Source: Candidatus Omnitrophota bacterium
GTDB lineage: Bacteria > Omnitrophota > Gorgyraeia > B26-G9
Direction: 5' to 3'
DNA: 64,000 nucleotides
Assembly: GCA_018817585.1 (NCBI GenBank)
Contig: JAHITE010000080.1
Span: 5,774-69,773, forward strand
In this document: positions 36,443 to 59,517 of the stretch, piece after piece
Numbering within the stretch: the first letter of the stretch is position 1
Layout of the letters: every line of letters starts with the position of its first letter
Translations under genes and position numbers: made by a program
The notes under the pieces: model-generated
Told to the model about the DNA's origin: nothing
The model's database searches: none
The model's input: only the letters and a program-made list of their open reading frames with translations

Positions 36443-36533
36443 AGTACGAAGCGCGTGCTTGGCTGATAGCTGATGATAGCTCATGGCCAGAAGCAAAAGA
36501 TATAAGGACACCAGGACACAAGGTCACAATGTA

Positions 36534-36556
36534 GGGGCCGCGCTTGTCCCGGCCCC
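36534..36556. repeat. GC-rich REP-like hairpin (ggggccg-N9-cggcccc) between convergent genes
   Basis: Related to 25935-25957. Immediately preceded by a GGTGAC-family repeat copy (36507-36530). Confidence 0.5.
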
Positions 36557-36580
36557 TAATAATATACTCGAAACAATTAG

Positions 36581-37525
36581 TTATAGTTTCCGCTTGGGAT
36601 GGGAAGTAAAATAAGGGTCGTGGATGCTTTTCCTAAAAGCGGCAAGGCTTAAGGGTGATGAATTTACCCGCCAGTCTTTTTCTTTCTTGGCATTAAACCA
36701 GTAAAATGCTTCTACTTGAGAATATTGGTTCTTAAGGCATTTAAACATATCAATAATCCAGAGGGATTTACTCCCTCCGAATTGATTGTCTTTGGGAGTG
36801 GCGGTTTCCGAGATCATGATTTTTTTATCCCCAAAGATTTCCGGATGCTCAATAAAAACATGGTACATTGGGTAAAATAAATCATTAAAATTTTGATCAT
36901 AAGGCCAGCCAGGCTGTCCATCCTCGCCCCAGTTGTAGCCGTCAATTGCCAGCCAATCAACATATTCTTTTCCCGGATAATAAAGCGGTATAACATCAAG
37001 CCATGTCGGGTAATTCATTGGCGCCCAGACAAACTCCACATTATGGGCGTTTTCGGTTTTAAAGATACGGTAAATGTGTTGCCAGGCTTTTACATATTTA
37101 TCGGGTTTATCTTGCCAGGGATACCATCCCGAGGTTTCCGGATTATTAAAATGAATCATTTCATGGGCGAATCTTAGGCGAATAACCTTGCTCCAGTCGC
37201 GGCAATCCCGGGCAAACTGTTGAATGTAAGCATCGTGCCGGCCATTGATTATACTGGAAAGACTATAGCTGCTGTCATTGACTCCAGCTCTTTTCCAGGG
37301 TTCCCAAGTAATATGCAGACTTATTTCCGTGTCATATCCGTCATGATAGCGTACTTGATGTAAATCAGACAGGGGAAAAGCTCCATCAGCCCAATCCCAG
37401 AAAAACAGAATAGAGTTAAGATGTCTGCCGGTAAGATGTTCATACTTGCGGATTTCTTCAACATTTGGCGGCCGATGATTGGGGTTGCCGACAAAAGCGC
37501 CTATTTCACAATGTTTATTTTGCAT
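36581..37525 (-). CDS. glycoside hydrolase, GH26-like (mannanase family)
   Basis: LRFAHEMIHFN (GH26 acid/base region RFxHEMN), WEPW and Trp-rich TIM-barrel signatures. Confidence 0.65.
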   Translation of the reverse strand: MQNKHCEIGAFVGNPNHRPPNVEEIRKYEHLTGRHLNSILFFWDWADGAFPLSDLHQVRYHDGYDTEISLHITWEPWKRAGVNDSSYSLSSIINGRHDAYIQQFARDCRDWSKVIRLRFAHEMIHFNNPETSGWYPWQDKPDKYVKAWQHIYRIFKTENAHNVEFVWAPMNYPTWLDVIPLYYPGKEYVDWLAIDGYNWGEDGQPGWPYDQNFNDLFYPMYHVFIEHPEIFGDKKIMISETATPKDNQFGGSKSLWIIDMFKCLKNQYSQVEAFYWFNAKKEKDWRVNSSPLSLAAFRKSIHDPYFTSHPKRKL

Positions 37526-37841
37526 GAATCTAACCCTTTATTAAAAATCAGCTTTCTTTGAAAATAGTTTATTGCATATCTAATTTATAAGTCATGACAT
37601 GATTTTAAATCTTTTATCAATGCTAAGTCAAGATAATATGAGCTGTTTATAATTTTAGCGAATAATTACGGGAAAATTTGTAATGGTCAGGGGGAAATAA
37701 GCGTAAAACAAGAGGATTGTTTTAGATTATAGAAAACAAGGGTTGTTAGATTTGAGAGCAATTAACATACTTGTTTACAATAAGGCTGCTCAGTCGTATA
37801 ATTACCATTACGCGTAAACTTAAGACTCTAAGGAGAAAACA

Positions 37842-38801
37842 TTGGTTTTTACTCTAATTTATTTAATAATTGGTTTTTGTATTCTTATTGCCGGAGCGAA
37901 TTTTCTGGTTGAAGGAGCTTCCTCTTTAGCTAAAAGATTACGTGTTTCTGATTTGGCCATCGGTTTATCTGTAGTTGCTTTGGGGACATCCACTCCGGAA
38001 TTATTTGTTAATATATTTGCCAGTTTTCAGGGGAATTCAGAAATCGCGATAGGCAATATATTAGGCAGCAATATTTTTAATATTCTGGTTATTCTCGGTT
38101 TATCCTCTTTGATTTTTCCCTTAGCTGTGACCAAAGGTACTGTTTGGAAGGAAATACCGTTTAGCTTCTTGGCAGTTCTTGTTTTGGGCGCGATAGTAAA
38201 TGATGTTTTTTTTGACAAAATGAACAGCAGCTTTATTGGCCGGATAGACGGATTTGTGCTGATATCTTTTTTCCTGATATTTATGTATTATATCGCAAGT
38301 ATTGCTAAAGACACAGAGTTGCTAAATCCTAGCGATATTAAGCCAAGGAGCATTTCAAAATCATTGATGATGATTAGCGGGGGAATTGTCGGTTTAGTTT
38401 TCGGCGGAAATTTTGTGCAAACCAGCGCGGTGGCGATTGCCAGCAGTTTAGGCGTCAGCCAATCGCTTATTGGATTGACGATTGTCGCTACTGGCACTTC
38501 ATTGCCGGAATTAGCAACTTCCGCGATTGCCGCGTCTAAAAAGAATTCTGATATTGCCGTGGGAAATATTGTTGGTTCAAATATATTTAATATTTTCTTT
38601 GTTTTGGGGATATCCGCGCTGATTAAGCCCTTACCGGTAATAACCCAAATCAATGCGGATATAGCGGTGCTGATATTATCAAGCTTGTTTTTATTTCTGT
38701 TTATGTTTACCGGTAAACGCCGGATTATTGACCGCTGGGAAGGCGGAGTGTTTATTGCTTTGTATGCTGGATATCTAATTTTTCTAATCAAAAGAGGGTA
38801 A
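37842..38801 (+). CDS. Ca2+/Na+ antiporter, CaCA family (YrbG-like)
   Basis: Two alpha-repeat motifs (GTSTPELFVNI and GTSLPELATSA). TTG start after an aaggag RBS. Confidence 0.85.
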   Translation: MVFTLIYLIIGFCILIAGANFLVEGASSLAKRLRVSDLAIGLSVVALGTSTPELFVNIFASFQGNSEIAIGNILGSNIFNILVILGLSSLIFPLAVTKGTVWKEIPFSFLAVLVLGAIVNDVFFDKMNSSFIGRIDGFVLISFFLIFMYYIASIAKDTELLNPSDIKPRSISKSLMMISGGIVGLVFGGNFVQTSAVAIASSLGVSQSLIGLTIVATGTSLPELATSAIAASKKNSDIAVGNIVGSNIFNIFFVLGISALIKPLPVITQINADIAVLILSSLFLFLFMFTGKRRIIDRWEGGVFIALYAGYLIFLIKRG

Positions 38802-38810
38802 TAAAATCAA

Positions 38811-39413
38811 ATGAAAACATTTTTAAAACATTTAGAGCAATACATCATAAAAGGACTATTAGCGCTTATTCCTTTAGGGATTACAATTTTTATATTAAAG
38901 TTTACTTATGTTTTGATTGATAAAACTCTTATGGGAACAATTGACCAGTATATTGGTTATCGGATTCCGGGAACAGGATTATTGTTGTTTATTATTATCC
39001 TGTATTTTACCGGGATGATTGCCAGTAATGTGCTGGGGAGAAAAATATTTTCTATTTTAGAGTATTTAAGCAGTAAAGTTCCGTTGATAAAGACGGTATA
39101 TCAAGTGGGTAAACAATTATCAAACGCTTTAGCTCTTTCGGATAAACAAGTGTTTAGGAAAGCGGTGCTGGTTGATTATTTTAATCCAGGGGTCAGATCA
39201 ATAGGGTTTATTACGGGTGAGATTACTAATAAGCAAACAGGCGAGAAGCTGTTGAAAGTATTTATTCCTACAGCGCCAAATCCGACTTCCGGTTTTTTAG
39301 TTATTCTCAGTGAGGCGCAAACCAAAGATCCGCAGTGGACTGTGGAAGAAGCTTTGAAAATGGTTATTTCCGGCGGGCTTATTGGGCCAAATGAATTTGC
39401 GGGTTTGAAATAA
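38811..39413 (+). CDS. DUF502 family membrane protein
   Basis: Two N-terminal TM helices followed by a conserved soluble domain (SKVPLIKTVYQVGKQ...). Confidence 0.7.
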   Translation: MKTFLKHLEQYIIKGLLALIPLGITIFILKFTYVLIDKTLMGTIDQYIGYRIPGTGLLLFIIILYFTGMIASNVLGRKIFSILEYLSSKVPLIKTVYQVGKQLSNALALSDKQVFRKAVLVDYFNPGVRSIGFITGEITNKQTGEKLLKVFIPTAPNPTSGFLVILSEAQTKDPQWTVEEALKMVISGGLIGPNEFAGLK

Positions 39414-39484
39414 TCAAAGTTGATTTTAGTTGAATCATTATTTATATTTCTGTTTTGACAGGCTGGGTAATTAGAGGAGATCAG

Positions 39485-40066
39485 ATGTTCCCTAAAATAT
39501 TATTAGCGTTTATTCCGATTTTTGTGGCAGTAGACGCGATTGGCGTATTACCGATTTTTATTTCTTTGACTCGCGATCTGGATAAAATATCAAAAAAGCG
39601 AATTCTAACACAATCATTTTTCACCGCGATACTTGTTGCTTTTGTGTTTATTTTAATTGGCAAGGGATTATTTGCTTTGCTGGGAATCACGGTTGGCGAC
39701 TTTATGGTTGCCGGGGGGATTGTTTTGTTTTGCATCGCGATTCTTGATTTACTGTTTCCTGGCAAGCGCAGAAGAATGCCTATCGAAGAATTAGGTGTGG
39801 TTCCTTTGGGCATGCCGCTGATTGTCGGCCCGGCGGTTTTAACAACCTGTTTGATTATTGTTGATCAATATGGAATAATCCCGACAATTATTTCGGTTAT
39901 TGTAAATATTTTTTTCGCGATTGTTCTTTTTTATTGCTCTGACCGGGTGACCAGGGTATTGGGAAAATCAGGAGCAATGGCCTTATCAAAAATAATGGCT
40001 TTGCTTTTAGCTGCTATTGCTGTAATGATGATCAGAAAAGGGCTTACGGTACTGATGAGTTTATAA
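39485..40066 (+). CDS. MarC/UPF0056 family integral membrane protein
   Basis: FIPIFVAVDAIGVLPIF N-terminal motif. RBS agaggag before the ATG at 39485. Confidence 0.75.
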   Translation: MFPKILLAFIPIFVAVDAIGVLPIFISLTRDLDKISKKRILTQSFFTAILVAFVFILIGKGLFALLGITVGDFMVAGGIVLFCIAILDLLFPGKRRRMPIEELGVVPLGMPLIVGPAVLTTCLIIVDQYGIIPTIISVIVNIFFAIVLFYCSDRVTRVLGKSGAMALSKIMALLLAAIAVMMIRKGLTVLMSL

Positions 40067-40244
40067 CACATTATTGTTAGCGTAGTATACTCATTGTTTA
40101 ATATCCGGCAATACATAATAAACAATGCCTCAACCTGGGACAGAGACGAACATAATCCAAATAATAAAAAATATGAATGGCATGCAGTATATCTTTTTAT
40201 AGCAGAGAAGAAAGTCTACTGCGTAAAAAATTAATGCATAAAGA

Positions 40245-40523
40245 CTAGAAGGGGATGTTGACTCCGGACCGAACCTCTAAATAGACTGATCGGTCAAAGC
40301 TGCGGTCCGGGAAAACCTGACAATATTCATTAAAGTCATGCTCGTGAATCGATAAGAAGGCGTTTGCGAAATGGTCGTGTACGCTGCGTAATAACGGCGA
40401 ACCGTCTTCCGTCACCGGGCAGTTGCCTCTGATAAACTGCTTTATCTGGTTACCGGAACTAAGTATATCATAACTTTCTCCAAATTGCCTGCTGCTTTTG
40501 ATTTTTTGCCGACATTTTTGCAA
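40245..40523 (-). CDS. hypothetical 92-aa ORF in a GC-rich patch; coding status uncertain
   Basis: The only long ORF in a 510-bp gap. No RBS, no recognised domain. The region could instead be non-coding RNA. Confidence 0.25.
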   Translation of the reverse strand: MQKCRQKIKSSRQFGESYDILSSGNQIKQFIRGNCPVTEDGSPLLRSVHDHFANAFLSIHEHDFNEYCQVFPDRSFDRSVYLEVRSGVNIPF

Positions 40524-40577
40524 TATTTGCCCGCATGTGGTATTCTTTTATAATTTGCATAAGGAGTTTCAGGGAAT

Positions 40578-40961
40578 ATGCTTATTAAAAATATAAGGTT
40601 TTTATTTTTTTATGCGGCGTGGTTTTTATTGTTAAACACGCATCTTTTAGCCGCTGACTTTTGTGTTGAGACCAGGCAGGATTTTTCCAACTTATCCCCG
40701 GTAATGGCGATATCGGAGCAGGGGCTCAGGAGTGCCGTAAAAGGGGAGGTTTTGAACGGCGGCAGGGTCGTGCTTGGCAAGGCAGGGACGTATTTTCTAG
40801 ATGTGAATTTTCGCCGCGATCCGGAACTCAGGCTTGATGAATATACCAATCGGATAATCGAACAATGTTTAGCGGGAAATTATACGCTTTTAGGAAACCT
40901 TCTATTTGGAACAGTTGATTTTGACAAAAACTATGATTACAAAAAGGCAAGAAAAAGATGA
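40578..40961 (+). CDS. small secreted protein, unknown function
   Basis: Signal peptide ending in LLAADF. 127 aa. Confidence 0.5.
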   Translation: MLIKNIRFLFFYAAWFLLLNTHLLAADFCVETRQDFSNLSPVMAISEQGLRSAVKGEVLNGGRVVLGKAGTYFLDVNFRRDPELRLDEYTNRIIEQCLAGNYTLLGNLLFGTVDFDKNYDYKKARKR

Positions 40962-41157
40962 AAATTCTTGCTGATACATGTATCTGGTCACAAGTTCTAA
41001 GACGTAAAAATCTGACAAAGGCAGCAAAATAGGTTGTTGAATAGAAAAATTCGCACTATAATATAACGAAAAGCAAAGATTTTTCTGCGGATGAATTAGA
41101 CGTTTAAGAAGAACTATAGAAAATTCGGGATACATTTTAAAAAAACGGCGGTGTAAT

Positions 41158-41715
41158 ATGAAATGGGATGTGTTTATTTGCCATGCAAATGAAGATAAAT
41201 TGACTTTTGTGGAGAAACTCGCTTATGAATTAAGAAACAAGGGCTTACGAGTATGGTACGACAATTTCGCATTGAAACTCGGCGATTCTTTAAGACGAAC
41301 AATTGATGAGGGTGTAGCAAAATCAAGGTATGGAATAGTGGTATTAAGCAAAGCATTCTTCGTTAAAAATTGGACACAGTATGAACTTGATGGTTTGGTG
41401 TATCGAGAGAATACCGGCGAAAAGATTATTCTTCCTGTCTGGCTTGATGTCTCATCGGTAGAAGTCGCGAAATATTCACCGTCTTTGGCAAACAAGGTTG
41501 CTGTTCGCGCTGAAGTCGGTACGGAAGAAGTTCTGCGAAAAATACTTGAAGTAATCAAGCCAGATATGGCGGAAGAATTTAGTGCTGCTTTTTCTAAAGC
41601 TTCGCGAACTGAAAGGCAAGATAGATTCGTGGAGTATCAACCTTCTGAAAACTTTCCGCCTCGACATGAGGTGTGGAAGTGGCCATGGAATACAACTCCA
41701 GGCTCGCAAGTTTGA
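41158..41715 (+). CDS. TIR-domain protein (stand-alone, ThsB-like size)
   Basis: WDVFICHANEDK...VWYD...L.LGDSL...YGIVVLSKAFFVKNWTQYELDGL, the canonical bacterial TIR (DUF1863/TIR_2) motifs. Confidence 0.8.
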   Translation: MKWDVFICHANEDKLTFVEKLAYELRNKGLRVWYDNFALKLGDSLRRTIDEGVAKSRYGIVVLSKAFFVKNWTQYELDGLVYRENTGEKIILPVWLDVSSVEVAKYSPSLANKVAVRAEVGTEEVLRKILEVIKPDMAEEFSAAFSKASRTERQDRFVEYQPSENFPPRHEVWKWPWNTTPGSQV

Positions 41716-41835
41716 AAGAAACAGAGGGTACAGACCTCGAAATGCGAAAGTAGCGAAAGAATCCGGGACCTGCTATCTTAGTTAATTTATTGACTAAGTA
41801 ATCGGATAGGCGTATCATTTATATATTATAATGGT

Positions 41836-46649: not shown

Positions 46650-46732
46650 TTAGATATTGAATTTGCTATTAGGTTTATGATTAAAGGTCACAAGGTAAAA
46701 GCAGGAAAAGTTATAAAGTTGAAAGTGAAAAG

Positions 46733-48213: not shown

Positions 48214-48282
48214 AGCGTTAACCCGTTAACTCGCTAACTTTTTTCTGTGACCTTGTGACTTGTGTCCTGGTGACTCGTAGAG

Positions 48283-49818
48283 TTACATCCTATCGCTTTT
48301 TTCCGGAACCATTTTTATTGCCCGGATTGGTCTTACTGGGCATTTTGTCTGGCAGATGCCGCAGCCAATACAAAGTTTTTCATCTATTTCCGGGCGTAAT
48401 AATAATTTTCCGTCAACAATTTCCTCTTTAATTTTTATCGCTTTATCCGGAATGGGGCAATGTTCTTCGCAGCCAATACATTCTTTATTTTTTGCCCAGG
48501 GTAAGCATGTTTCGCGATTAATTTTCGCAATACCCAGTTTCAGCGTTTGTTTTTTGGCTAAAGGGATTTTTTTTATCGCGCCAGTTGGACATACTTGGCT
48601 GCAGAGCGTGCAATTATATTCGCAATATCCAATATCCGCGATCAGCTGCGGGCTCCAGACACCCCGTGCTCCGCAAGCAACGATCACCGGTTGCAATCCA
48701 TTGGTCGGACATACTTTCATGCAATTGCCGCAGCGGATACAGCGGTTTAAAAATGTATCTTCTTTTAATGCCGCGGGCGGTCTGATGATATAAGGATGAC
48801 GGCTGTCCAGAAAATCTTGACTTGAAGATTTTTTTATGGCCAGCAGGCTAAGCGATGAAGTTAAGGTCATAATCAGAAATTCCCGGCGGGATATTCCTGA
48901 TTTTATTTCAGGAGTTTTAGCCTGAGGCTTTAATCTTAAAGCGTTAAAATGAAAAAAAGTTTCTTGAGTTGGGCAATCATATACGCAGTCCATGCATAAA
49001 ATACATTCAGATTTCAGGTAACTAAAATCTTTTTTTATCGCGCCCATCCGGCAGCGCGTATTGCATTTTCCGCAGGCAATACATTTTGTTACCACTCTTT
49101 TTAAGGGGCTGCATTTTGCCGCAAGCGCGTATAATCCTCCCAAAGGGCAAATTGTCCGGCACCAGAGGCGTGGGATATAAAAAGCAGCAAGTATAATAAG
49201 CAGGATATCCAGCAAAGTAATCCAGGAATGAGCAAAAAAGCTTATTTTTACTCCAAGAATCGATTGCTGTAAATCGCGGTATAGATCAAATAATCGCAAT
49301 GACAGATTAGAGGCTTTTAGCAAGCGGATAAAGCTATTGTCAATAATTAAGGTAATTGCCGGAATAAGATTTAAAGATACGAATCTGCCGAAAATAACTA
49401 TAGGATCAAATAGCCAGGAAATCTGTACTTTGAAAATGGCAAAACAAAATATTATTAGTAGAATCAAATATTTAAATTTTCTTACTTTGCGATTAGTTTT
49501 GTCCGGAGCAACAAATTTTTTTTTATTCAGCCAGTTCGCGAAATCCATGAAACTGCCCAAAGGGCAAACCCAGCCGCAAAAGTATCGGCCGATAATCATG
49601 CTTAGCAATAAAAGGATTAAGCTGTAAATAATTCCGGTTAGAACAATGCGTTCGCTGAGAGAGGAAATAATCATTAGCAGCGGATTAGTTTTAAAAAACA
49701 AATCAGAGGGCAAGGGGCTGGTTAGGGGATAGGTTGTTGTCCAGAGAATGTAGCCAAAGCCTAGAAAGAATATTATTTGAGAAAATCCGCGGATAAGCAC
49801 TAGTTTTTTAAATTTCAT
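48283..49818 (-). CDS. membrane-bound polyferredoxin (NapH/MauN-like, multiple 4Fe-4S motifs)
   Basis: Several TM helices plus at least four CxxCxxCxxxCP clusters. Confidence 0.8.
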   Translation of the reverse strand: MKFKKLVLIRGFSQIIFFLGFGYILWTTTYPLTSPLPSDLFFKTNPLLMIISSLSERIVLTGIIYSLILLLLSMIIGRYFCGWVCPLGSFMDFANWLNKKKFVAPDKTNRKVRKFKYLILLIIFCFAIFKVQISWLFDPIVIFGRFVSLNLIPAITLIIDNSFIRLLKASNLSLRLFDLYRDLQQSILGVKISFFAHSWITLLDILLIILAAFYIPRLWCRTICPLGGLYALAAKCSPLKRVVTKCIACGKCNTRCRMGAIKKDFSYLKSECILCMDCVYDCPTQETFFHFNALRLKPQAKTPEIKSGISRREFLIMTLTSSLSLLAIKKSSSQDFLDSRHPYIIRPPAALKEDTFLNRCIRCGNCMKVCPTNGLQPVIVACGARGVWSPQLIADIGYCEYNCTLCSQVCPTGAIKKIPLAKKQTLKLGIAKINRETCLPWAKNKECIGCEEHCPIPDKAIKIKEEIVDGKLLLRPEIDEKLCIGCGICQTKCPVRPIRAIKMVPEKSDRM

Positions 49819-50810
49819 ACAGTTAGATCAAGGATGTTGGCTTGATCAAGATCAGCATTGCCCAAATCGCGGTTTATCGCGCTGGCGATATAGGGAATAG
49901 ACATGGGGTCATAACCCATAAGTTTGGCCGCATACGCGTCAGTTAAGACAGGCTCTGTGCCGACAATTAATTTTTGCGTAAGTTGGACATCTTCCAGATT
50001 TCCGCCTACCGGGCCATTGCGCAATAATACTCGGTAAGCATCAATCACGGTTAGGTCAGGATTAATGAAATTAGTCAGATCAGCCAGTTTTAGTCCAATA
50101 TCAGTGTGGATGTTTCCCCGCGAGCCTGAGCAAATGCCCATTAAGTTTTTCATGGAAAGGGTAAGCCCAGTGAGCCGATGATGTTTCATGATCGGGACAT
50201 TAATAAAAGTGTCGCACTCTAAAGCTTCGCGAAAAACCGGCCAGTTTTCCATGGGGCTTTGATAGGCAAATTTTGCTTGGCAGACATTCCAGGGGCTTGG
50301 AAAAAAGATATTAGCTTTATGTTCTTTGGCGATTTTCTGTATACCGCTATTATCATAACAGCGTTTAGCGTCATTGCAGCAATTATCAAAAATATTGACT
50401 CTTTTTGCTCCAGCTTGAAAACATAGATCAATTAAAGCGGCGATAACATCAGGATTTGTATTAGCGGCTTGTTCCGGGGTTCTGTCCCAAGCAATATTTG
50501 GTTTGATTAATACTGTGCTATTGGGTTTTACAAAATGTTCCATTCCTCCTATTGCCTGAATAGCTTTTAATGTAAGCTGATACGGATCACTCCCGGAAGC
50601 AGCGACTAAATCATAAGCAGTTTTAATGTTTTTTTTAATTCTGCCTGTTGAATCAGCGGGTAAGGCTAATGCGGCTTTAGCAATAATGCTTTCAGTAACT
50701 AATAAGCTGGCTCCGGAACAGAGTAATTTTAAAAATTCTTTTCTGGATATTTTTTTTTGAAATATTGAATCAAATTTCATGGCCGCCTCCTTAATCAATA
50801 AGTTTACCAT
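49815..50810 (-). CDS. DUF362-domain protein with a twin-arginine (Tat) signal
   Basis: SRKEFLKLLCSGASLL Tat motif. VLIKPNIAWDR...DLC DUF362 core. Overlaps the polyferredoxin start by 4 nt. Confidence 0.75.
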   Translation of the reverse strand: MVNLLIKEAAMKFDSIFQKKISRKEFLKLLCSGASLLVTESIIAKAALALPADSTGRIKKNIKTAYDLVAASGSDPYQLTLKAIQAIGGMEHFVKPNSTVLIKPNIAWDRTPEQAANTNPDVIAALIDLCFQAGAKRVNIFDNCCNDAKRCYDNSGIQKIAKEHKANIFFPSPWNVCQAKFAYQSPMENWPVFREALECDTFINVPIMKHHRLTGLTLSMKNLMGICSGSRGNIHTDIGLKLADLTNFINPDLTVIDAYRVLLRNGPVGGNLEDVQLTQKLIVGTEPVLTDAYAAKLMGYDPMSIPYIASAINRDLGNADLDQANILDLTV

Positions 50811-51147
50811 TTAAAACATAGATGTTCAAGGCCACAAAGACACCAGGTCAAAAGCCAAAAGCAGGCAGTTAAAATATAATCTATTAGAGGCGTTGAGAAC
50901 TAAAATAGATTGATTTGGAGGTTTTACAAAAGTTTTTAACCTGGTGACTTTGTGACCCAGGTGACCTGGTGATTTATAGATTAATTTTTAAAACTTGTGT
51001 AACCTGGGATATAAGAGTATAATCAATAAAGTAATAAGCAATACGTAATCCCGCATCAAAAGTGTAGGACAACAATATTCATGCCTAGATAGACAGCATA
51101 TCTTATTTGATCCCGTTATATATAGGCTGATAACAAAGAAAGACAGT

Positions 51148-52881: not shown

Positions 52882-53091
52882 ATGCATAAGGGTAAAATAA
52901 ATAAAGTTGTTCGGGATAGAGGCTTTGGCTTTATTGATGATACAGATGGCAGACAATTATTCTTTCATCAGAGCAGTGTATCAGGAGTGGAATTTGATTC
53001 TTTAAGAGGGGAAGAACAGGTTGAGTTTGAAGTCGAAGATTCTCCTAAAGGACCAAGAGCGATTAATATAAAGATAATAGAACAAGCGTAA
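52882..53091 (+). CDS. cold-shock domain protein, second paralog
   Basis: GKINKVVRDRGFGFIDDTDGRQLFFHQSSV. Confidence 0.85.
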   Translation: MHKGKINKVVRDRGFGFIDDTDGRQLFFHQSSVSGVEFDSLRGEEQVEFEVEDSPKGPRAINIKIIEQA

Positions 53092-53134
53092 TCCCAGACA
53101 CGATGGGATTAATGTTTTTGTTTTGAGAGCAGGA

Positions 53135-53169
53135 AAAAGGGATGGCTTTAGCCATCCCTTTTTCCTGAA
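53135..53169 (+). terminator. rho-independent terminator after the csp pair
   Basis: aaagggatggct / agccatcccttt stem followed by a T-run. Preceded by a second small hairpin at 53093-53109. Confidence 0.6.
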
Positions 53170-53181
53170 AAAAAACATATT

Positions 53182-53216
53182 GACAAATAATCGTATTGTA
53201 CTATTATACATACGAA
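53182..53216 (+). promoter_or_regulatory. sigma70-like promoter of the kamA operon (-35 ttgaca, 17 bp, -10 tattat/attata)
   Basis: Read from the sequence. The next gene's RBS (ggaagga) and ATG lie at 53273. Confidence 0.5.
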
Positions 53217-53272
53217 TAAAGATAAAATTAACTTGTTTCTAAACAGTATCCTTGGAAGGAGACACGCTGTTC

Positions 53273-54457
53273 ATGGAAAGACAAATCCTAAATGGTGGAG
53301 ACTCGGAGAATGATAAACCTCCAGACTCGTGCAGTACCAGCAGTGAATATTTGAATAAAAATAATTGTAACAATAATTTAATAGTTACTGCTGAACCAAA
53401 ACCGCTTCCAAAAAAGTTGATAGCTACGGCTGAGCAATTGGCCAAGTTTATTAATTTTGACGCAACAACACGCAAAGCTTTGATTGAGATTATCAAACAA
53501 TACCATATGTTAATTCCTCCTTACTATTTTTCTTTAATTAAAGATCCAAATGATGAAAATGATCCAATTCGCAAGCAATGTGTTCCCGCGCTAGAGGAGC
53601 TTTTTTCTAATTCCATGGAAAGAGAAGATCCCTTAGGTGAAAAGAAAACATCAGTTACTAATATATTAGTGCATCGTTATCCGGATAGAGTGCTTTTAAT
53701 TTCCACATCGCGCTGTTTTATGTATTGCCGTCATTGCACGCGCAAACGTTTATGGCAGAATAATAATGTTGAACCGACTCTCGCGGAAATCCATTCTTCT
53801 TTAGAATATGTCAGAGCGCATAAAGAAATCCGAGAAATTATTATTTCCGGAGGAGATCCCTTGACCTTAAATCAAGAAAGGCTGGATTGGATTTTAGAGC
53901 AAGCGAGCAATATTGAACATATTCAGTCTATTCGTATCGGAACGAGAACTCCAGTAGTATTTCCGGAGCGAATAACCAAGAGTTTATGCCGCATTCTGGG
54001 TAAATATGATAAGCTTTGGATAAATCTGCAGTTTAATCATCCGCGGGAAATAACCCCGGAATCCACGGCAGCCTGCCAGATGCTGCAAAAAAGCGGCATC
54101 CCTTTGAGCAACCAGAGTGTTTTGTTAAAAGGGGTGAATGATTCCGTGGAGGTAATGAAAGAACTTTGTCAAAAACTCCAGGCAATCAGGGTTAGACCGT
54201 ATTATATTTTTCAATGTGATGAAGTGGTAGGGGCATCGCATTTCCGGACCTCAATATTTAGGGGCATAGAAATAATCGAGCATCTGCGCGGACATACCAG
54301 CGGAATGTGTGTTCCGAGATTTGTGGTCGATGGCCCTAATGGCAAAGGAAAAATACCTTTAGACCCGCAGTATTTGCTGAGCATGACACCGAATAAAGTG
54401 GTTTTGAGAAACTATAATAATGAAGTATTTGAATATCATAATCCCCAAAGTGATTAG
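53273..54457 (+). CDS. KamA-family radical-SAM/PLP aminomutase (lysine-2,3-aminomutase-like)
   Basis: CxxxCxxC in STSRCFMYCRHCTRKR, IISGGDPLTL (PLP region) and conserved KamA C-terminal blocks. Start chosen at the second ATG with an RBS. Confidence 0.85.
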   Translation: MERQILNGGDSENDKPPDSCSTSSEYLNKNNCNNNLIVTAEPKPLPKKLIATAEQLAKFINFDATTRKALIEIIKQYHMLIPPYYFSLIKDPNDENDPIRKQCVPALEELFSNSMEREDPLGEKKTSVTNILVHRYPDRVLLISTSRCFMYCRHCTRKRLWQNNNVEPTLAEIHSSLEYVRAHKEIREIIISGGDPLTLNQERLDWILEQASNIEHIQSIRIGTRTPVVFPERITKSLCRILGKYDKLWINLQFNHPREITPESTAACQMLQKSGIPLSNQSVLLKGVNDSVEVMKELCQKLQAIRVRPYYIFQCDEVVGASHFRTSIFRGIEIIEHLRGHTSGMCVPRFVVDGPNGKGKIPLDPQYLLSMTPNKVVLRNYNNEVFEYHNPQSD

Positions 54458-54475
54458 CTGGAAAAAGGATATTTA

Positions 54476-55489
54476 ATGAAAACAGCGCTTAATCATAAGC
54501 TTCGGGCGGGAATATGTTTTAATCTAAAAAGGGATATAGACAGCGACTCGGACGAAGAATATGATGAAATAGAAACCATAGAATTTTTGCAAAAGCGATT
54601 GGAATATTTGGGCTTTGAAGTTTTGCTTGCTGAACAAGACCAGGATTTATTCAGCAAGCTTAATAGTAATAAACTGGATTTTGTCTTGAATATCGCTGAA
54701 GGCAAAGGCAAAACCCGCAGCCGGGAATCGCAAGTTCCCTGCTTGCTGGAATGGCTGAATATCCCTTATTATGGTTCTGATCCTGCTGCTTTGGCTTTAA
54801 CTCTGGATAAATGGCTTAACTATGTTGTTTTAAAAAATTCTTCTATTCCTGTTCCGAAAATGTTTACAATATCTGATCTTCAGCAGCTGCAGAGTCTGGC
54901 TATTCCTTTTGACGGCCGTAAATATATTATTAAGCCTCGCTGGGAAGGCTCGTCCAAAGGCATTTTTGATGATTCAGTAATCAGTTCGATTGATAAATGC
55001 CGGGATAAAGTTAATTTTATTTTAACTCAATATCATCAGCCGGCATTGGTCGAAGAGTTTGTGGAAAACGAAGAAATCACTGTTGGCTTGTGTGGTAATC
55101 AGGAGCTTGAAATCCTGGGAATGATGAAGATTTCTCAAAATCAGCAAAAAAAAACTTTTGTTTATTCAATAGAAAATAAGCGGGATTGGCAGGCGCGAAT
55201 CAAATATGAGCGCGCTGAAGAAGTTATCGCGGATAAGACATTAAAGCTGCTGCGCCAATATGCCATGGCCGCGTTTAAGGTGCTTGGCTTGGCTGATGTG
55301 GCACGCATAGATTTTCGGGTGGACAACCTGGGTGTACCAAAAATAATTGATGTAAACCCTTTGCCAGGGCTTTCTCCTAGGTATAGTGATTTAATGCTAA
55401 TCTCCAAGCTGCATAATAAGAAATTTGTTGATGTGGTTGATAAGATTTTAAACATATCTTTAAAAAGGAATAATATACATACCTCGTGA
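54476..55489 (+). CDS. ATP-grasp ligase, D-Ala-D-Ala ligase (Ddl)/PylC-like, paralog 1
   Basis: EGKGKTRSRESQVPCLLEWLNIPYYGSDPAALALTLDKWL..., the Ddl central-domain pattern (HG..GEDG..QG.LE..GIPY.GS....A..MDK), and a C-terminal ATP-grasp (ARIDFRVD...IIDVNPLPGL). Confidence 0.8.
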   Translation: MKTALNHKLRAGICFNLKRDIDSDSDEEYDEIETIEFLQKRLEYLGFEVLLAEQDQDLFSKLNSNKLDFVLNIAEGKGKTRSRESQVPCLLEWLNIPYYGSDPAALALTLDKWLNYVVLKNSSIPVPKMFTISDLQQLQSLAIPFDGRKYIIKPRWEGSSKGIFDDSVISSIDKCRDKVNFILTQYHQPALVEEFVENEEITVGLCGNQELEILGMMKISQNQQKKTFVYSIENKRDWQARIKYERAEEVIADKTLKLLRQYAMAAFKVLGLADVARIDFRVDNLGVPKIIDVNPLPGLSPRYSDLMLISKLHNKKFVDVVDKILNISLKRNNIHTS

Positions 55490-56484
55490 AAGTATTAATA
55501 GCTATTGCCCGCGAAAATAATGCCAGACAAGATAATGCCGACGCTTCGCGCTGCGCGGATTCGATCAAAGCAGCTTTGTCAGCAAAAAATATAGCTGCCG
55601 ATTTATTTTTTGTCGAGCCTGGCGACTTTTTAAGGTCTGAAAAAAATTTAATAAGAAAAATTAAAAATTTAAATCCCGACTGTGTATTTAATTTGTTTGA
55701 AGGATTTAGTTATGACGCGCAAAGGGAAATTGATTTTGCTGGTATCTTGGAGAAGACCGGGATCGCGTTTACCGGGAATAAAAGTAAAGTCTTAGAGCAA
55801 TGTTTGGATAAAAACTTGTGTAAAAATCTTTTGCTAAAGGCTGGTTTGCCTGTGCCAGCTGGTCTTTGTCTTAAGCCAGGAGAAGGCTTGAGTTCAAGTA
55901 AGCTTAAATTGCCTGTGTTTATTAAGCCATGCTGTGAAGACGCGAGCGTGGGGATTGATAAAGATTCTTTGGTTTCTAACCAGGAAGATTTAAATAAAGT
56001 TATAAATTTAAAACTGCAAAAGCATCCGGAAGGCCTGATTATTGAAGAGTTTCTTTCCGGTAATGAATACAATGTGTCCTTTATTGGTCAGCCGCCTTAT
56101 GAAATGCTGGGTATCTCGATCATGGATTATTCCAAAGTCAACGCGCAAAAACCGTTTATGAGTTATGAGGCTAAGTGGGAGCGGCAAAGTCCGGATTTCA
56201 ATAAGCTGATTCCCCAAGTGATCGCGAAAAATCAATACAGTGATTTAGAAAAACAAATTGCTGATCTCTGCGTTCAAGCAGCGCGAAATATCGGATGTTC
56301 CGGCTATTTTAGAGTAGACCTGAGGCAAAGCAATAATAAAATTTTTATAATTGATGTTAATCCTAATCCGGATATAAATAATGACAGCGGCTTTGCCCGT
56401 CAGGCCTATTCCGCGGGGTATACATATGAAGAAATTATTTGTAAAATACTTAGTTTAACTATGGAAAGACTAAACCTTGATTGA
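55486..56484 (+). CDS. ATP-grasp ligase, Ddl-like, paralog 2 (start overlaps the previous stop)
   Basis: VFNLFEGFSYDAQREIDFAGILEKTGIAFTGNKSKVLEQCLDKNL..., and FRVDLRQS.NKIFIIDVNPNPD. Confidence 0.8.
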   Translation: MKVLIAIARENNARQDNADASRCADSIKAALSAKNIAADLFFVEPGDFLRSEKNLIRKIKNLNPDCVFNLFEGFSYDAQREIDFAGILEKTGIAFTGNKSKVLEQCLDKNLCKNLLLKAGLPVPAGLCLKPGEGLSSSKLKLPVFIKPCCEDASVGIDKDSLVSNQEDLNKVINLKLQKHPEGLIIEEFLSGNEYNVSFIGQPPYEMLGISIMDYSKVNAQKPFMSYEAKWERQSPDFNKLIPQVIAKNQYSDLEKQIADLCVQAARNIGCSGYFRVDLRQSNNKIFIIDVNPNPDINNDSGFARQAYSAGYTYEEIICKILSLTMERLNLD

Positions 56485-56966
56485 ATCCGGAGTCTGGCAT
56501 GAAATATGAAATAAAACAGTACTTAAAAATAACCAAGAGTACCGCGGTTTTTACAGAAGGCGAAATTGAGATTTTAAAAGAACTGTTAGAGGATTTGCAG
56601 AATAATAAAAAAACAACATACAGCTTGATTGAAGAAGCAGCGGATGGTAAATTAGCCGGGTTTACTTTATTTGGCCGTACGCCATTAACGGAATTCACCT
56701 GGGATATTTATTGGATAATCGTGGATAAATCATTTCAGGGCAGAGGGATTGGAAAATCGCTGCTAATCAAAACCGAAGAACTGATTAAAGCGAAAACACC
56801 CAGAGCGACAATAAAGCTGGAAACATCGACAAGAAACCAATATTCCGCGGCGCGGGGTTTATATAAAAAAGTGAAATTTGAAGAAGCAGGTAAACTGGTG
56901 AATTTTTATTCTGAAGGCGATGATATGGTTATTTTTTATAAAGAGATTCGTGTCGCGGAAAAATAA
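56481..56966 (+). CDS. GNAT family N-acetyltransferase (start overlaps the previous stop)
   Basis: IVDKSFQGRGIGKSLL (acetyl-CoA P-loop Q/RxxGxG/A). Confidence 0.8.
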   Translation: MNPESGMKYEIKQYLKITKSTAVFTEGEIEILKELLEDLQNNKKTTYSLIEEAADGKLAGFTLFGRTPLTEFTWDIYWIIVDKSFQGRGIGKSLLIKTEELIKAKTPRATIKLETSTRNQYSAARGLYKKVKFEEAGKLVNFYSEGDDMVIFYKEIRVAEK

Positions 56967-57101
56967 GTGTACTGATTTTGATGGATGAGAATAGATAAAT
57001 TAGAAAAAATAACTGGATGCTTGATTTTATCAGACAATTTGATATAATAAAAGACTTTAACACTTTAAAATATAGAAAAGCATAAAAAGGAGATAGTTCC
57101 A

Positions 57102-59195
57102 ATGGCACGTTTAATCGAATTAGATAAGGTAAGAAATATTGGCATCATGGCGCATATTGACGCGGGAAAGACTACGGTAACCGAAAGAATATTGTTTTAT
57201 ACCGGCAGATCGCATAAGATCGGTGAAGTACATGACGGTAAAGCGCAGATGGATTGGATGAAGCAGGAACAGGAAAGAGGGATCACGATTACCTCCGCGG
57301 CGACAACCTGCGCTTGGAATGGACATAAGATTAATATTATTGATACTCCCGGTCACGTTGATTTTACCGTAGAAGTTGAGCGTAGTTTGCGAATCCTTGA
57401 TGGCGCAGTTGCCGTGTTTTGCGCGGTTGGCGGTGTAGAACCTCAGTCGGAAACAGTTTGGAGACAATCTGATAAATATCAAGTCCCAAAGATCGCGTTT
57501 ATTAATAAAATGGATCGGATTGGTGCTGACTTTTTTTCAGTTGTAAAAAACATTGAAGATGATCTTGGGGCAAATGTTATTCCCTTGCAGATTCCGATGG
57601 GCGCGGAAGATCATTTTATTGGAATTATTGACTTGCTGGAAATGCAAGCCTGTATTTATGAAGATGATTCACAAGGTAAGAATTTCCGGTTGGAAGCGAT
57701 TCCCGCGGAGTACGCGGAAAAAGTTAAAGAATTTCAGCATAATTTGCTGGAAAAAGCTGTGGAATTAGACGATAGTTTAATGGAAAAATATTTAGAAGAC
57801 GAAAATTCTATCACTAAAGAAGAGCTGATTGCCGCGATCCGCAAAGGAACAATTGCTAATAAAATTGTTCCGGTTTTGTGCGGTTCGGCATTTAAGAACA
57901 AAGGTGTGCAGAGATTGCTGGACGCGGTTACTATGTATCTGCCATCGCCAGTTGATTTGCCGCCGGTTGAAGGTCATGATCCGGATGATGTAGAAAAGAA
58001 AATTCTTCGCAGGCCTGATGATAATGAACCCTTTTCCGCGCTTGCTTTTAAAATTCAGGCTGATCCGCATATGGGGAAATTAGTATATTTCCGGGTTTAC
58101 TCCGGAACAATCAAAGCCGGCACCTATATTTATAATTCAACTAAAGGCAGAAAAGAAAGAGTCGGCCGTTTGATGCAGATGCATGCTAATACCCGGGATA
58201 TGCGCGAAGAGATTTGCGCTGGGGATATCGCGGCGGTTGTTGGTTTAGATCGCACGATAACCGGGGATACGCTTTGTGATGAGGATAATCAGGTTGTGCT
58301 TGAGGCCATGGAATTTCCCGCGCCGGTTATGTCTTTGAGTATTAAACCGCAAAGTCGTCCGGATCAGGATAAGCTGGGCAAAGGCTTGATGCGCTTAGCT
58401 GAAGAAGATCCGACTTTTACAGTGCAAACAGATAAAGAGACTGATGAAACTATTCTTTCCGGAATGGGAGAATTACATCTGGAAATCATTGTCGACCGCT
58501 TAAAGCATGAATTTAAAGTAGAAGCAGTTGTTGGAAAACCAAAGGTTGCTTATCGGGAGACAATCACCGCTAGTGCTACTGAAAACTATAAGCATGTTAA
58601 GCAAACAGGTGGTAAAGGACAGTACGCGCATGTGGTGCTTAAGATTTATCCTGCTGAGCCGGGACATGGTTTTGAGTTTGTCAATAAGATTACCGGAGGA
58701 TCAATTCCCCGGGAATATATTCCGGCGGTTGAAAAAGGGGTTATTGAGAGAATGCTAAAAGGAAGTTTTGCCGGATATCCAGTTGTCGACGTTATGGTTG
58801 AATTAACTGATGGTTCTTACCATGATGTTGATTCTTCAGAAATGGCGTTTAAAGTCTGCGCGTCAGAGTGTTTTAAACGCGCGTTTATGAATGCGTCACC
58901 AATCTTGCTGGAACCTTATATGTCTATTGAAGCCTCATCTCCGGAAGAATATACCGGATCTGTAGTTGGCGATATGTGTTCCCGCCGCGGAAAAGTATTG
59001 GGCATGGAAATGAAGGCTAAACTGCAGATTGTCTCAGCAGAAGCTCCGCTGTCAGAAATGTTTGGATATGCCAGTGCCTTGCGTTCAATGAGCAGCGGCA
59101 GAGCGAATTATTCAATGCATTTTGAAAAATACATTGAAGTTCCTTTCTCGATCGCGGAAAAGATTATTGAAGAGAAAAAGCAGGTTAAAAAGTAA
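57102..59195 (+). CDS. fusA: elongation factor G, stand-alone copy
   Basis: [27 protein letters not shown] and the full five-domain length (697 aa). Not within a str/S10 operon context in this window. Confidence 0.9.
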
Positions 59196-59325
59196 ATTAA
59201 AAGCATAAGATAAAGTTGACATCCCAATAGACTGTGTGTATTATATAAGCGTGTATGTTGTTGTTACAGAATGCTTAGGGGATTTAGACAACGCTTGTGT
59301 CTAAAGATGATTAAAAAAAGCCAGA

Positions 59326-59362
59326 GCAAAATCTGTTCTGGCTTTTTTTATTACGCACAGAT
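59326..59362 (+). terminator. rho-independent terminator (gccagaac...gttctggc + T8)
   Basis: Read from the sequence. Lies 130 bp past fusA and downstream of an independent promoter (59216-59245). Confidence 0.6.
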
Positions 59363-59370
59363 TTTCAGTA

Positions 59371-59472
59371 GGGACAGCCCTTGCGGCTGTCCGATATAAA
59401 AACAATATAAAATCAGCGGAATTGGGACAAATTATTGATAAACGGACAGGGGCAAGCCCTGTCCCTACTTGC
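59371..59472. repeat. REPIN-like doublet: two GC-rich hairpins in inverted orientation (tagggacagcc-cttgc-ggctgtccg ... cggacaggg-gcaagc-cctgtcccta)
   Basis: The outer arms agtagggacag / ctgtccctact are mutually complementary. Each unit is itself a hairpin and shares GGGACAG with the RAYT terminal repeats. Confidence 0.55.
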
Positions 59473-59517
59473 AACTTGGTGACCTGGTGACATTTTTACA
59501 AAGGAATTAAAATTAAG

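What the first reader, a model, noticed from the sequence alone, without database searches (positions are those of the whole stretch)
36507..59493. Dispersed intergenic family of tandem 8-9-bp GGTGAC units (YTGGTGAC / GTCACCAR) present in both orientations
Seen: 36507-36530 gacaccaggacacaaggtcacaat. 48247-48274 gtgaccttgtgacttgtgtcctggtgac, which is the reverse complement of the previous one with an extra unit. 50830-50854 ggccacaaagacaccaggtcaaaag. 50938-50973 aacctggtgactttgtgacccaggtgacctggtgat. 59476-59493 cttggtgacctggtgaca. A weaker copy lies at 46685-46701. All are intergenic, and each is built from 2-4 head-to-tail repeats of an 8-9-mer containing GGTGAC. Two copies flank the divergent DUF362 / DEAD-box helicase promoter region and one sits 25 bp upstream of the PAS-LuxR gene. 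Two others lie in convergent 3' gaps next to REP-like hairpins. I do not recognise this as a described element. It could be an array of binding sites for a DNA-binding protein, an NTS-like repeat, or a second REP class.
Basis: seen in the sequence. Interest (0 to 1): 0.58.

Follow-up and report, generated by a model that had tools for sequence, protein, structure and literature searches.

The report
Gene-less relics of S23p/IVS-like cassettes
The scattered GGTGAC repeat arrays are real and are the leftover arms of a little-studied selfish cassette that, when complete, carries a small four-helix-bundle gene (the "23S rRNA intervening-sequence protein", a relative of the retroelement protein Avd) between two inverted arrays of 8-base repeats.

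Summary
Arrays of 2-4 units YTKGTGWC at 8-bp spacing occur at 36507, 48246, 50830, 50938 and 59476, with a sixth just left of the window. There are 4 strict arrays against 0.03 expected.

The window is from a Candidatus Omnitrophota MAG. In Omnitrophota and Planctomycetes the same units form inverted pairs, always GTCAC...GTGAC (20 pairs, 0 opposite). In complete copies the pair encloses a ~117-aa PF05635/TIGR02436 gene (S23p, Avd-like).

Of 65 non-redundant metagenomic PF05635 loci, 57 share 7-mers between the upstream flank and the reverse complement of the downstream flank (controls 5/36). The unit motif there matches the window's.

The window has no such gene. The pair at 50830-50973 folds into a ~25-bp stem and still carries the last nine codons and stop codon of the gene (LIWRFYKSF*) directly before its right arm. 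The other copies are solo arms. Orthologous arrays in a close relative are decayed or absent.

Best reading: ORF-less relics of IVS-like cassettes, whose arms form RNase III-type stems in known 23S rRNA IVSs. The binding-site idea is untested and the REP idea is rejected. This is a new variant of a known kind. Interest 0.62.

The parts
36507..36530 (-). Solo arm of 3 units. The minus strand reads ATTGTGAC CTTGTGTC CTGGTGTC. It lies in the convergent gap between Ppnp and a GH26-like gene and directly abuts the GTAG of a REP-like hairpin (36531-36559).
46685..46701 (-). Possible vestige of about 1.5 units, GGTCACAAGGTAAAAG. It resembles the end of a left arm plus the GTAAAAG junction seen upstream of PF05635 genes. 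There is no counterpart in relative L145.
   Evidence: weak
48246..48274 (+). Solo arm of 4 units (TGTGAC, TGTGAC, TGTGTC, GGTGAC; spacing 8, 7, 8). It lies in the convergent gap between RadC and a Fer4 gene. A decayed orthologous array is present in L145.
50830..50854 (-). Left arm of the ORF-less miniature cassette (GGCCACAAA GACACCAG GTCAAAAG). It directly abuts the inferred -35 of the DUF362 promoter (TTGAAC, 50829-50824, minus strand).
   Evidence: the promoter is my inference, supported by conservation in L145
50855..50937 (+). Loop of the miniature cassette. Positions 50910-50939 read LIWRFYKSF-stop, which is the C-terminal remnant and stop codon of a PF05635 gene; the stop overlaps the first bases of the right arm. 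An internal small hairpin lies at about 50877-50910.
50938..50973 (+). Right arm of the miniature cassette, 4 units (CTGGTGAC TTTGTGAC CCAGGTGAC CTGGTGAT). It ends 21 nt upstream of the inferred DEAD-box helicase -35 (TTGTGT 50995-51000, then 17 nt, then TATAAT 51018-51023).
59476..59493 (+). Solo arm of 2 units (CTTGGTGAC CTGGTGAC). It lies 7 nt after the CTAC end of a REP-like hairpin (59444-59468) and 25 nt upstream of the PAS-LuxR start codon. It is identical in a second assembly (L144).

Best explanation
The arrays are arms of a family of small selfish cassettes related to the intervening sequences (IVS) of 23S rRNA.

A complete cassette has four parts in order:
- a left arm of 3-8 tandem 7-8-bp units (GWCAC-M-A-N)n;
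- a ribosome-binding site;
- a ~117-aa gene of the PF05635/TIGR02436 four-helix-bundle family (S23p, a homologue of the DGR accessory protein Avd);
- a stop codon followed immediately by a right arm of the complementary units (N-T-K-GTGWC)n.

The two arms pair into a 25-40-bp stem. The window holds only ORF-less derivatives:
- One miniature cassette at 50830-50973 has both arms and an 84-nt loop that still ends with the last nine codons and the stop codon of the gene.
- Solo arms lie at 36507, 48246 and 59476, with another upstream of serS just outside the window.
- A possible vestige lies at 46685.

Shown here: the arrays are non-random. The unit motif and polarity match those of arms flanking PF05635 genes. 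The miniature cassette has a stem and a gene remnant. There is turnover between relatives.

Inferred: the window copies arose by deletion of the gene and/or of one arm. In complete, transcribed copies the stem is an RNase III substrate, as in the Coxiella and Leptospira 23S IVS, so that an insertion is processed out or tolerated. The cassettes are mobile by an unknown route. The window copies are largely relics whose present effects are incidental. The 50830-50973 copy lies between two divergent promoters and is probably not transcribed by either.
For: 1. Non-randomness.

2. Taxon: the window helicase is 100% identical to a protein from a Candidatus Omnitrophica MAG. 27 of the 119 genome-contig loci carrying a 3-unit pattern are Omnitrophota.

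3. Polarity rule: 15 (Omnitrophota) plus 5 (Planctomycetes) pairs are arranged GTCAC...GTGAC, and 0 are in the opposite arrangement. There are 36 solo arms.

4. Complete cassettes: PF05635 (E = 6e-36) lies between inverted arrays in L035. The same is seen in L059, L054 (Omnitrophota) and L064, and in L287, L288 and L286 (Omnitrophota).

5. Generality, from 65 non-redundant PF05635 loci found in a metagenome scan:
- 52 have a 7/8-nt periodic flank, against 3 of 36 control windows.
- 57 share at least 3 7-mers between the upstream flank and the reverse complement of the downstream flank, against 5 of 36 controls.
- 162 flanking units give the motif [C>T] T [T/G] GTG [A/T] C, the same as the 11 window units.

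6. Gene remnant: window 50910-50939 reads LIWRFYKSF-stop against the protein C-terminus LLWNFYKSF-stop. 21 of 24 nt are identical to the 3' end of the Omnitrophica gene in L287, and the right arm follows in the same register.

7. Stem: window 50826-50978 folds at -44.4 and -48.3 kcal/mol, z = -3.9 and -6.7. Arms of one cassette pair better with each other than with arms of other cassettes (-53.7 vs -44.5 kcal/mol; 0 of 5000 permutations reached the observed mean).

8. Turnover:
- Orthologous arrays in L145 are decayed.
- About 65 kb from 82-89% relatives has none.
- Syntenic Omnitrophota genomes carry cassettes in different gaps and with other unit families.

9. Literature: the Coxiella IVS has an S23p ORF, a 28-bp terminal stem cut by RNase III, and tandem heptamers (GACAGAT) whose number varies between strains (PMC4990558).
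Against: - No PF05635 gene lies in the 64-kb window, and I could not survey the rest of this genome.
- Four of the six copies are solo arms that cannot form a stem, so an RNA-stem role cannot apply to them.
- The units in the window are near consensus while the orthologous arrays in L145 have decayed. This could mean maintenance (selection or homogenisation) in this lineage rather than neutral relics.
- The remnant match is short. Taken alone it has tblastn E = 0.34 within the window; its weight comes from its position and register.
- Mobility has not been shown: no target-site duplication or empty-site junction was resolved.
- RNase III cleavage is known only for rRNA IVSs.
Confidence: 0.73

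Rival explanations
1. The arrays are operator or landing sites for a DNA-binding protein: a global regulator, a nucleoid protein, a ribbon-helix-helix protein of the MetJ/ParG/omega type, or the PF05635 pentamer itself. The protein would bind each 8-bp unit cooperatively. This is not exclusive of the cassette origin, because the arms could have been co-opted.
For: - The period is 8 bp, with a conserved core and one free spacer position. From my own knowledge, MetJ metboxes and ParG tetramer boxes also have an 8-bp period and omega heptads a 7-bp period, in direct or inverted orientation.
- The 50830-50973 pair sits immediately upstream of the inferred -35 boxes of two divergent promoters.
- Window units are near consensus while those of L145 are decayed.
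- Analogous paired tandem-octamer sites in Geobacter metallireducens were proposed to bind global regulators (PMC2700814).
Against: - Arrays also lie in convergent 3' gaps (36507, 48246).
- They are absent or decayed at orthologous promoters that are otherwise conserved, so they are not needed for promoter function.
- Unit sequence differs from cassette to cassette even within one genome: GTCAC, GTTCATA and GTATAGCG in L286.
- No candidate regulator was identified, and there is no coherent set of flanking genes.
Confidence: 0.15
2. The arrays are a second class of REP/REPIN elements, mobilised by the RAYT-like Y1 transposase encoded at 5771-6460.
For: - Two arrays directly abut GTAG-hairpin REPs (36531, 59444-59468).
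- A Y1_Tnp gene flanked by inverted GGGACAGCGACTAG repeats is in the window.
Against: - The arrays have no GTAG tetranucleotide and no hairpin of their own.
- Other REPs in the window (25932, 59368) have no array.
- The same REP type occurs in L135 away from arrays.
- Arrays occur with PF05635 genes, not with Y1 transposases.
Confidence: 0.03
3. The arms act as portable promoter parts. TTGTGA in a unit serves as a -35 box, and because 3 units span 23 bp, a -10-like sequence directly after the last unit would complete an outward-facing promoter for the next gene.
For: - The conserved DEAD-box promoter uses TTGTGT or TTGTGA as its inferred -35.
- Several arrays are followed by TTTATA- or TATTAAT-like sequences 10-25 nt before a start codon: the serS array in L003, and L060, L053 and L098.
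Against: - The consensus scan calls no promoter at any array.
- Many right arms flanking PF05635 genes are not followed by a -10-like sequence.
- Solo arms also lie in convergent gaps.
Confidence: 0.07
4. These are ordinary microsatellite-like slippage arrays with no common origin.
For: Scrambled octamer patterns are as frequent as the real one in viral contigs: 14, 29 and 16 stretches against 19. Octamer tandem repeats as such are therefore common in large collections.
Against: - The units within an array are heterogeneous, not recent identical copies.
- There are six arrays of one motif in 70 kb against 0.03 expected.
- The polarity is strict, a gene is associated, and a gene remnant is present.
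Confidence: 0.02

Closest known systems
23S rRNA intervening sequences carrying an S23p ORF (Leptospira, Coxiella burnetii, Xanthomonas, Brucella, Haemophilus)
   Same: - The encoded protein family is the same (PF05635; PDB 2GSC is the best structural hit).
- Terminal inverted repeats form a long stem around the ORF.
- In Coxiella the stem region contains tandem heptamers (GACAGAT) whose number varies between strains.
- The element is regarded as selfish, with an unknown means of spread (PMC4990558).
   Different: - The window copies lie between protein-coding genes, not in helix 25 or 45 of 23S rRNA.
- They lack the ORF.
- Their arms are built entirely of 3-8 tandem octamers.
- Many are solo arms.
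- RNase III processing has not been shown for non-rRNA copies.
Paired tandem octa- and heptanucleotide sites of Geobacter metallireducens (Gmet_I classes 1-3; Aklujkar et al. 2009)
   Same: Three to five tandem 7-8-bp units, mostly in pairs on opposite strands at variable distance, dispersed in intergenic regions (for example between proB and proA), with tens of copies per genome (PMC2700814). One Omnitrophota cassette (L112) has ATTGCTAA-type units close to the Geobacter class 1 consensus GTTGCTYN.
   Different: - The unit sequences differ.
- The sites were interpreted as binding sites for IHF/HU or a global regulator.
- The passages I read mention no link to PF05635 genes, and I could not check the Geobacter genome.
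Avd, the accessory protein of diversity-generating retroelements
   Same: It is homologous to the cassette protein (weak bAvd and NF033474 matches; homology also stated in PMC10053308). It is a pentameric, nucleic-acid-binding four-helix bundle.
   Different: There is no reverse transcriptase, template repeat or variable repeat next to the cassettes examined. The window has neither the protein nor an RT near the arrays.
REP/REPIN elements with RAYT, and MITEs
   Same: They are short, dispersed, intergenic, palindromic non-coding derivatives that outnumber their protein-coding parent and are lost and gained between relatives.
   Different: - The parent encodes no recognisable transposase.
- The arms are tandem-repeat arrays, not a unique inverted repeat.
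- No target-site duplication was seen.
- REPs proper are present in the window as a separate family.

Membership tests
S23p/PF05635 IVS-type cassette | Terminal inverted repeats able to form a long (20 bp or more) stem | tested here: met
   Window 50826-50978 folds with the two arms paired (about 25 bp); z = -3.9 on the plus strand and -6.7 on the minus strand. This is not met by the solo arms at 36507, 48246 and 59476.
S23p/PF05635 IVS-type cassette | Arms made of tandem 7-8-nt units with the same motif and polarity as those flanking PF05635 genes | tested here: met
   The window units and 162 units flanking PF05635 genes give the same motif, YTKGTGWC. Polarity GTCAC...GTGAC holds in 20 of 20 pairs. 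Heptamers are reported in the Coxiella IVS.
S23p/PF05635 IVS-type cassette | PF05635 ORF between the arms | tested here: not met
   No PF05635 ORF was found in the window by jackhmmer over all ORFs of 50 aa or more. Only a 9-codon C-terminal remnant plus stop codon remains at 50910-50939. These are therefore ORF-less derivatives, not complete members.
S23p/PF05635 IVS-type cassette | Location inside 23S rRNA (helix 25 or 45) | tested here: not met
   All copies lie between protein-coding genes. No rRNA or any other Rfam family is present in the window.
S23p/PF05635 IVS-type cassette | Stem cleaved by RNase III | not testable with these tools
   Known for the Coxiella, Leptospira and Salmonella IVSs. 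It needs RNA end mapping here.
REP/REPIN (RAYT-associated) | GTAG (or an equivalent tetranucleotide) followed by an imperfect palindrome of 20-40 nt | tested here: not met
   The arrays have neither feature. Separate GTAGGG-hairpin REPs exist at 25932, 36531, 59368 and 59444, and in L135 without arrays.
MITE | Terminal inverted repeats, a target-site duplication, and an autonomous parent encoding a transposase | tested here: inconclusive
   Inverted arms are present. No duplication was evident at the junctions I read, though I did not test this systematically. The parent encodes PF05635, not a transposase.
Ribbon-helix-helix operator arrays (MetJ metboxes, ParG boxes, omega heptads) | Tandem 7-8-bp units in direct or inverted orientation, at promoters controlled by a cognate regulator | tested here: inconclusive
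   The geometry fits. However, no regulator was identified, there are copies in convergent gaps, and the arrays are not conserved at orthologous promoters.
CRISPR array | Repeats of 20 nt or more separated by unique spacers | tested here: not met
   The units are 8 bp and contiguous, with no spacers.

The most novel reading that the evidence does not exclude
PF05635 'four helix bundle' genes flanked by inverted tandem-repeat arms are a very widespread, so far unrecognised class of mobile cassette that has no canonical transposase. In this reading the Avd-like pentamer recognises its own 7-8-nt repeat units, so protein and unit type co-vary. It would mobilise or maintain the cassette through an RNA or single-strand hairpin intermediate, possibly with a reverse transcriptase supplied in trans. 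ORF-less miniatures and solo arms, such as those in this window and the 'global regulator sites' of Geobacter, would be its MITE-like progeny.
Probability: 0.3. Interest if true: 0.8.

Novelty: new variant of a known kind. Interest (0 to 1): 0.62.

Why it matters
PF05635/TIGR02436 proteins are abundant: 2140 relatives of one query at E <= 1e-20. Since the 1990s they have been known only as enigmatic ORFs inside 23S rRNA intervening sequences and as homologues of the DGR protein Avd.

This work suggests three things:
- These genes are almost always bracketed by inverted arrays of 7-8-nt tandem repeats.
- The cassettes sit between ordinary genes in many phyla.
- ORF-less arms persist as dispersed intergenic repeats.

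Together these give a concrete, testable model for what the family is. They explain otherwise puzzling repeat families in Omnitrophota and Planctomycetes, and probably in Geobacter. They also warn annotators that such arrays are more likely element relics than regulator sites.

Tried and rejected
- Rfam scan of the window: no family matched.
- Full-text search for the repeat sequences: nothing. Searches on S23p, PF05635 and tandem-repeat terms found only the Coxiella IVS paper and the Geobacter genome paper as relevant.
- Cross-phylum homogeneous arrays such as (TTGGTGTC)n in the genome-contig scan first looked like a universal motif. Scrambled-octamer controls in viral contigs were equally frequent, so I do not count raw cross-phylum hits as evidence.
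- REP/RAYT link: rejected.
- Intrinsic terminator role: the arrays lack a consistent T-run.
- Shine-Dalgarno-like GGTGA 'standby site' idea: dropped, because arrays also occur upstream of a tRNA gene, in convergent gaps, and as TTGTGAC units.
- Similarity of GTGAC-N3-GTCAC to matS/MatP, and Chi-like TGGTGG: recalled from memory only; the arrangement and the taxon do not fit.
- Strain variation: the only other assembly of this strain (L144) is identical.
- Look-up of the Ppnp protein: not on record.
- Search for a partner arm next to each solo arm: none found.

Full report
**1. The observation**

The quoted sequences are at the stated coordinates. The repeating unit is an 8-mer best written YTKGTGWC. 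The cores are GGTGAC, TGTGAC, GGTGTC or TGTGTC, spaced 8 bp apart (occasionally 7 or 9).

- With a strict definition (at least 2 KGTGWC cores spaced 7-10 bp) the window has four arrays: 36507 on the minus strand, and 48246, 50943 and 59478 on the plus strand. Two hundred dinucleotide-preserving shuffles give a mean of 0.03.
- A two-unit pattern with up to two mismatches gives 12 hits against 0.61 expected, and also recovers the degenerate array at 50830-50854.
- All copies are intergenic.
- A sixth array lies upstream of serS just outside the left edge, on the same contig (L003 5248-5268).

**2. Source organism and spread of the motif**

The DEAD-box helicase of the window is 100% identical to a protein of a Candidatus Omnitrophica MAG.

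Of these, 27 are Omnitrophota MAGs and about 17 are other PVC bacteria.

Many other hits are homogeneous microsatellites in unrelated phyla. Scrambled octamer patterns are as frequent as the real pattern in viral contigs (14, 29 and 16 stretches against 19). I therefore give no weight to the raw cross-phylum count. I do give weight to the Omnitrophota/Planctomycetes enrichment and to the architecture. That Omnitrophota are a small share of the collection is my own knowledge, not a tool result.

**3. Architecture**

In Omnitrophota and Planctomycetes loci the arrays typically come as inverted pairs, (GTCAC-NNN)n, then a short centre, then (NNN-GTGAC)n. After merging neighbouring arrays I counted:

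| Group | Pairs GTCAC...GTGAC | Pairs in opposite order | Solo arms |
|---|---|---|---|
| Omnitrophota | 15 | 0 | 22 |
| Planctomycetes | 5 | 0 | 14 |

. The window pair 50830-50854 / 50938-50973 obeys the same rule.

**4. What lies between the arms in complete copies**

[quoted passage not shown] Matches to bAvd and DGR Avd are weak. The best solved relative is 2GSC.

The same arrangement (left arm, ribosome-binding site, gene, stop codon, right arm) is seen in these loci:
- L059.
- L054, an Omnitrophota contig cut off before the right arm.
- L064, a Bacteroidetes contig.
- L112, an Omnitrophota contig with a different unit, ATTGCTAA.

I then asked the reverse question and fetched 80 metagenomic loci encoding relatives of this protein. 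Nearly all show inverted tandem 7-8-nt arrays directly against the gene. For the 65 non-redundant loci with enough flank:

| Measure | PF05635 flanks | Control windows 630-760 nt away |
|---|---|---|
| 7- or 8-nt periodic flank | 52 of 65 | 3 of 36 |
| At least three 7-mers shared between upstream flank and reverse complement of downstream flank | 57 of 65 | 5 of 36 |

.

- Unit sequences vary by lineage (GTCACNAN, GACACAA, GCACCAG, GCACAAG, GCATAAG, GCTTCCCA and others). The two arms of a cassette always match each other.
- The 162 GTGWC-type units flanking these genes give C>T, T, T/G, G, T, G, A>T, C. That is the motif of the 11 window units.
- Arms of one cassette pair better with each other than with arms of other cassettes of the same class (-53.7 against -44.5 kcal/mol; 0 of 5000 permutations reached the observed mean). 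Correlated arm length may contribute to this difference.

**5. Direct link to the window**

The window has no PF05635 ORF. However, the loop of the 50830-50973 element ends with ...AGA TTG ATT TGG AGG TTT TAC AAA AGT TTT TAA. This reads RLIWRFYKSF-stop, and CCTGGTGAC, the first unit of the right arm, follows immediately.

- PF05635 proteins end ...LLWNFYKSF-stop or ...LLWRFYQSL-stop, followed by CTGGTGAC.
- At the nucleotide level, 21 of the last 24 bases before the arm are identical to the 3' end of the gene in Omnitrophica bacterium RIFCSPLOWO2_02_FULL_45_16 (L287). The arm follows in the same register.
- The short protein match is not significant on its own (E = 0.34 in the window). Its position at the exact end of the query, with the stop codon aligned and abutting an arm, is what makes it telling.
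- The element folds with its arms paired into a ~25-bp stem.

I conclude that 50830-50973 is a deletion derivative of a PF05635 cassette. The other window copies are solo arms of the same family.

In other Omnitrophota, ORF-less palindromes have the centre GTCAC-CCGTAAAAGCTTTTACGG-GTGAC. This centre resembles the two gene-proximal junctions joined together: GTCACCAGTAAAAG... upstream of the gene and ...TAACGGGTGAC downstream.

**6. Turnover**

- In a relative with 91% helicase identity (L145), the arrays in the RadC/Fer4 gap and upstream of the helicase are present at the same positions. There they have decayed to T-rich 7-9-mers.
- L145 has no array upstream of DUF362.
- About 65 kb from relatives at 82-89% identity has no array at all.
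- Two syntenic Omnitrophota genomes carry cassettes in different gaps. The gap that holds a GTCAC palindrome, a tRNA gene and a full cassette in L287/L288 holds a GTTCATA/TATGAAC pair in L286. L286 also has GTCAC-type and GTATAGCG-type cassettes.

This is the behaviour of a mobile or unstable element, not of conserved operators.

**7. Position relative to promoters (my inference)**

- The DUF362 start is at 50780, preceded by GGAGG. TTGAAC-17-TAAACT on the minus strand (50829-50801) is conserved in L145 as TTGAAT-17-TAAACT.
- For the helicase, TTGTGT-17-TATAAT (50995-51023) lies in a block that is nearly identical in L145.
- The simple consensus scan does not call either promoter.

If these promoters are right, the miniature cassette lies exactly between two divergent promoters and is transcribed by neither. 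Both promoters exist in L145 without it. This argues against a required regulatory role and against an RNA-level role for this particular copy.

**8. Comparison with what is known**

- The closest described elements are the 23S rRNA IVSs that carry an S23p ORF. In Coxiella, the 28-bp terminal stem is cut by RNase III, and tandem heptamers GACAGAT of strain-variable number lie in the 5' part. The element is called selfish, with unknown mobility (PMC4990558).
- Paired tandem octamer and heptamer sites at variable distance were catalogued in Geobacter metallireducens and proposed to be global-regulator sites (PMC2700814). They have the same architecture, and I suspect they are the same kind of element. 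I could not check this.
- In the library I found no paper that links non-rRNA PF05635 genes to inverted tandem-repeat arms or that describes ORF-less derivatives.

**9. Verdict**

The finding is real. It is not a REP class. It is most likely not a regulon, although that was not tested.

It is a set of ORF-less relics of IVS-like PF05635 cassettes. Membership as a complete cassette fails, because there is no ORF and the copies are not in rRNA. Derivation from such cassettes is well supported. The mechanism (stem formation and RNase III processing in complete, transcribed copies, and selfish spread) is inferred by analogy.

Novelty: new variant of a known kind. Interest: 0.62.

Noticed in passing
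window 5727-6476: A RAYT-like Y1 transposase gene (5771-6460; PF01797, E = 1e-13) is flanked by inverted repeats GGGACAGCGACTAG (about 5730-5745) and CTAGTCGCTGTCCC (about 6460-6473). It has a near-consensus promoter TTGACA-17-TATGAT placed only about 7 nt before the ATG.
   Followed up: partly
window 25932-25957, 36531-36559, 59368-59392, 59444-59468: A REP family of the form GTAGGG-hairpin-(CCCTAC). 59368 and 59444 form an inverted doublet (REPIN-like). The same REP type is present in another Omnitrophota MAG (L135).
   Followed up: partly
window 59216-59350: A near-consensus promoter (TTGACA-17-TATTAT, 11 of 12 matches) is followed about 100 nt later by a strong hairpin plus T-run (AGCCAGAGCAAAATCTGTTCTGGCTTTTTTT). 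This looks like a small RNA or tiny-ORF transcription unit between EF-G and the PAS-LuxR gene. It has no Rfam match.
   Followed up: partly
window 50974-51147 and L145 9830-10000: The long (~125 nt) inferred 5' leader of the DEAD-box helicase is conserved in a relative. Two cold-shock-domain genes follow the helicase (L142 5472-5944). This may be a cold-shock regulatory leader.
   Followed up: no
L035 3947-7720: In a Planctomycetia contig, arms of the same octamer family bracket AbiEii-toxin and HTH genes, together with a truncated 5' end of the PF05635 gene. There are 12 arrays in 8 kb. The arms may mark a hotspot where other cargo (toxin-antitoxin or defence genes) accumulates.
   Followed up: partly
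L286 7010-7125 and 20300-20350; L112 1080-1500: Other repeat-unit families occupy the same kind of element: GTTCATA/TATGAAC (ORF-less pair), GTATAGCG (left arm of a second PF05635 gene), and ATTGCTAA (close to the Geobacter class 1 consensus GTTGCTYN).
   Followed up: partly
L287/L288 7790-7940 and L093 4090-4200: An ORF-less GTCAC...GTAAAAGCTTTTAC...GTGAC palindrome sits immediately upstream of a tRNA gene in two different Omnitrophota MAGs.
   Followed up: no
literature (PMC10910872, figure legend): '23S rRNA IVP' is listed among CRISPR-linked proteins in a large clustering study. The tandem-repeat arms next to these genes might be mistaken for CRISPR arrays by repeat finders. This is only a suspicion.
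   Followed up: no
window 48283-49818 vs L142 1223-2671: The Fer4 gene is called as 482 aa on the ENA contig, but the open frame in the window is 511 aa, as in relative L145. This may be a difference in gene calling or in sequence between assemblies. I did not check it.
   Followed up: no
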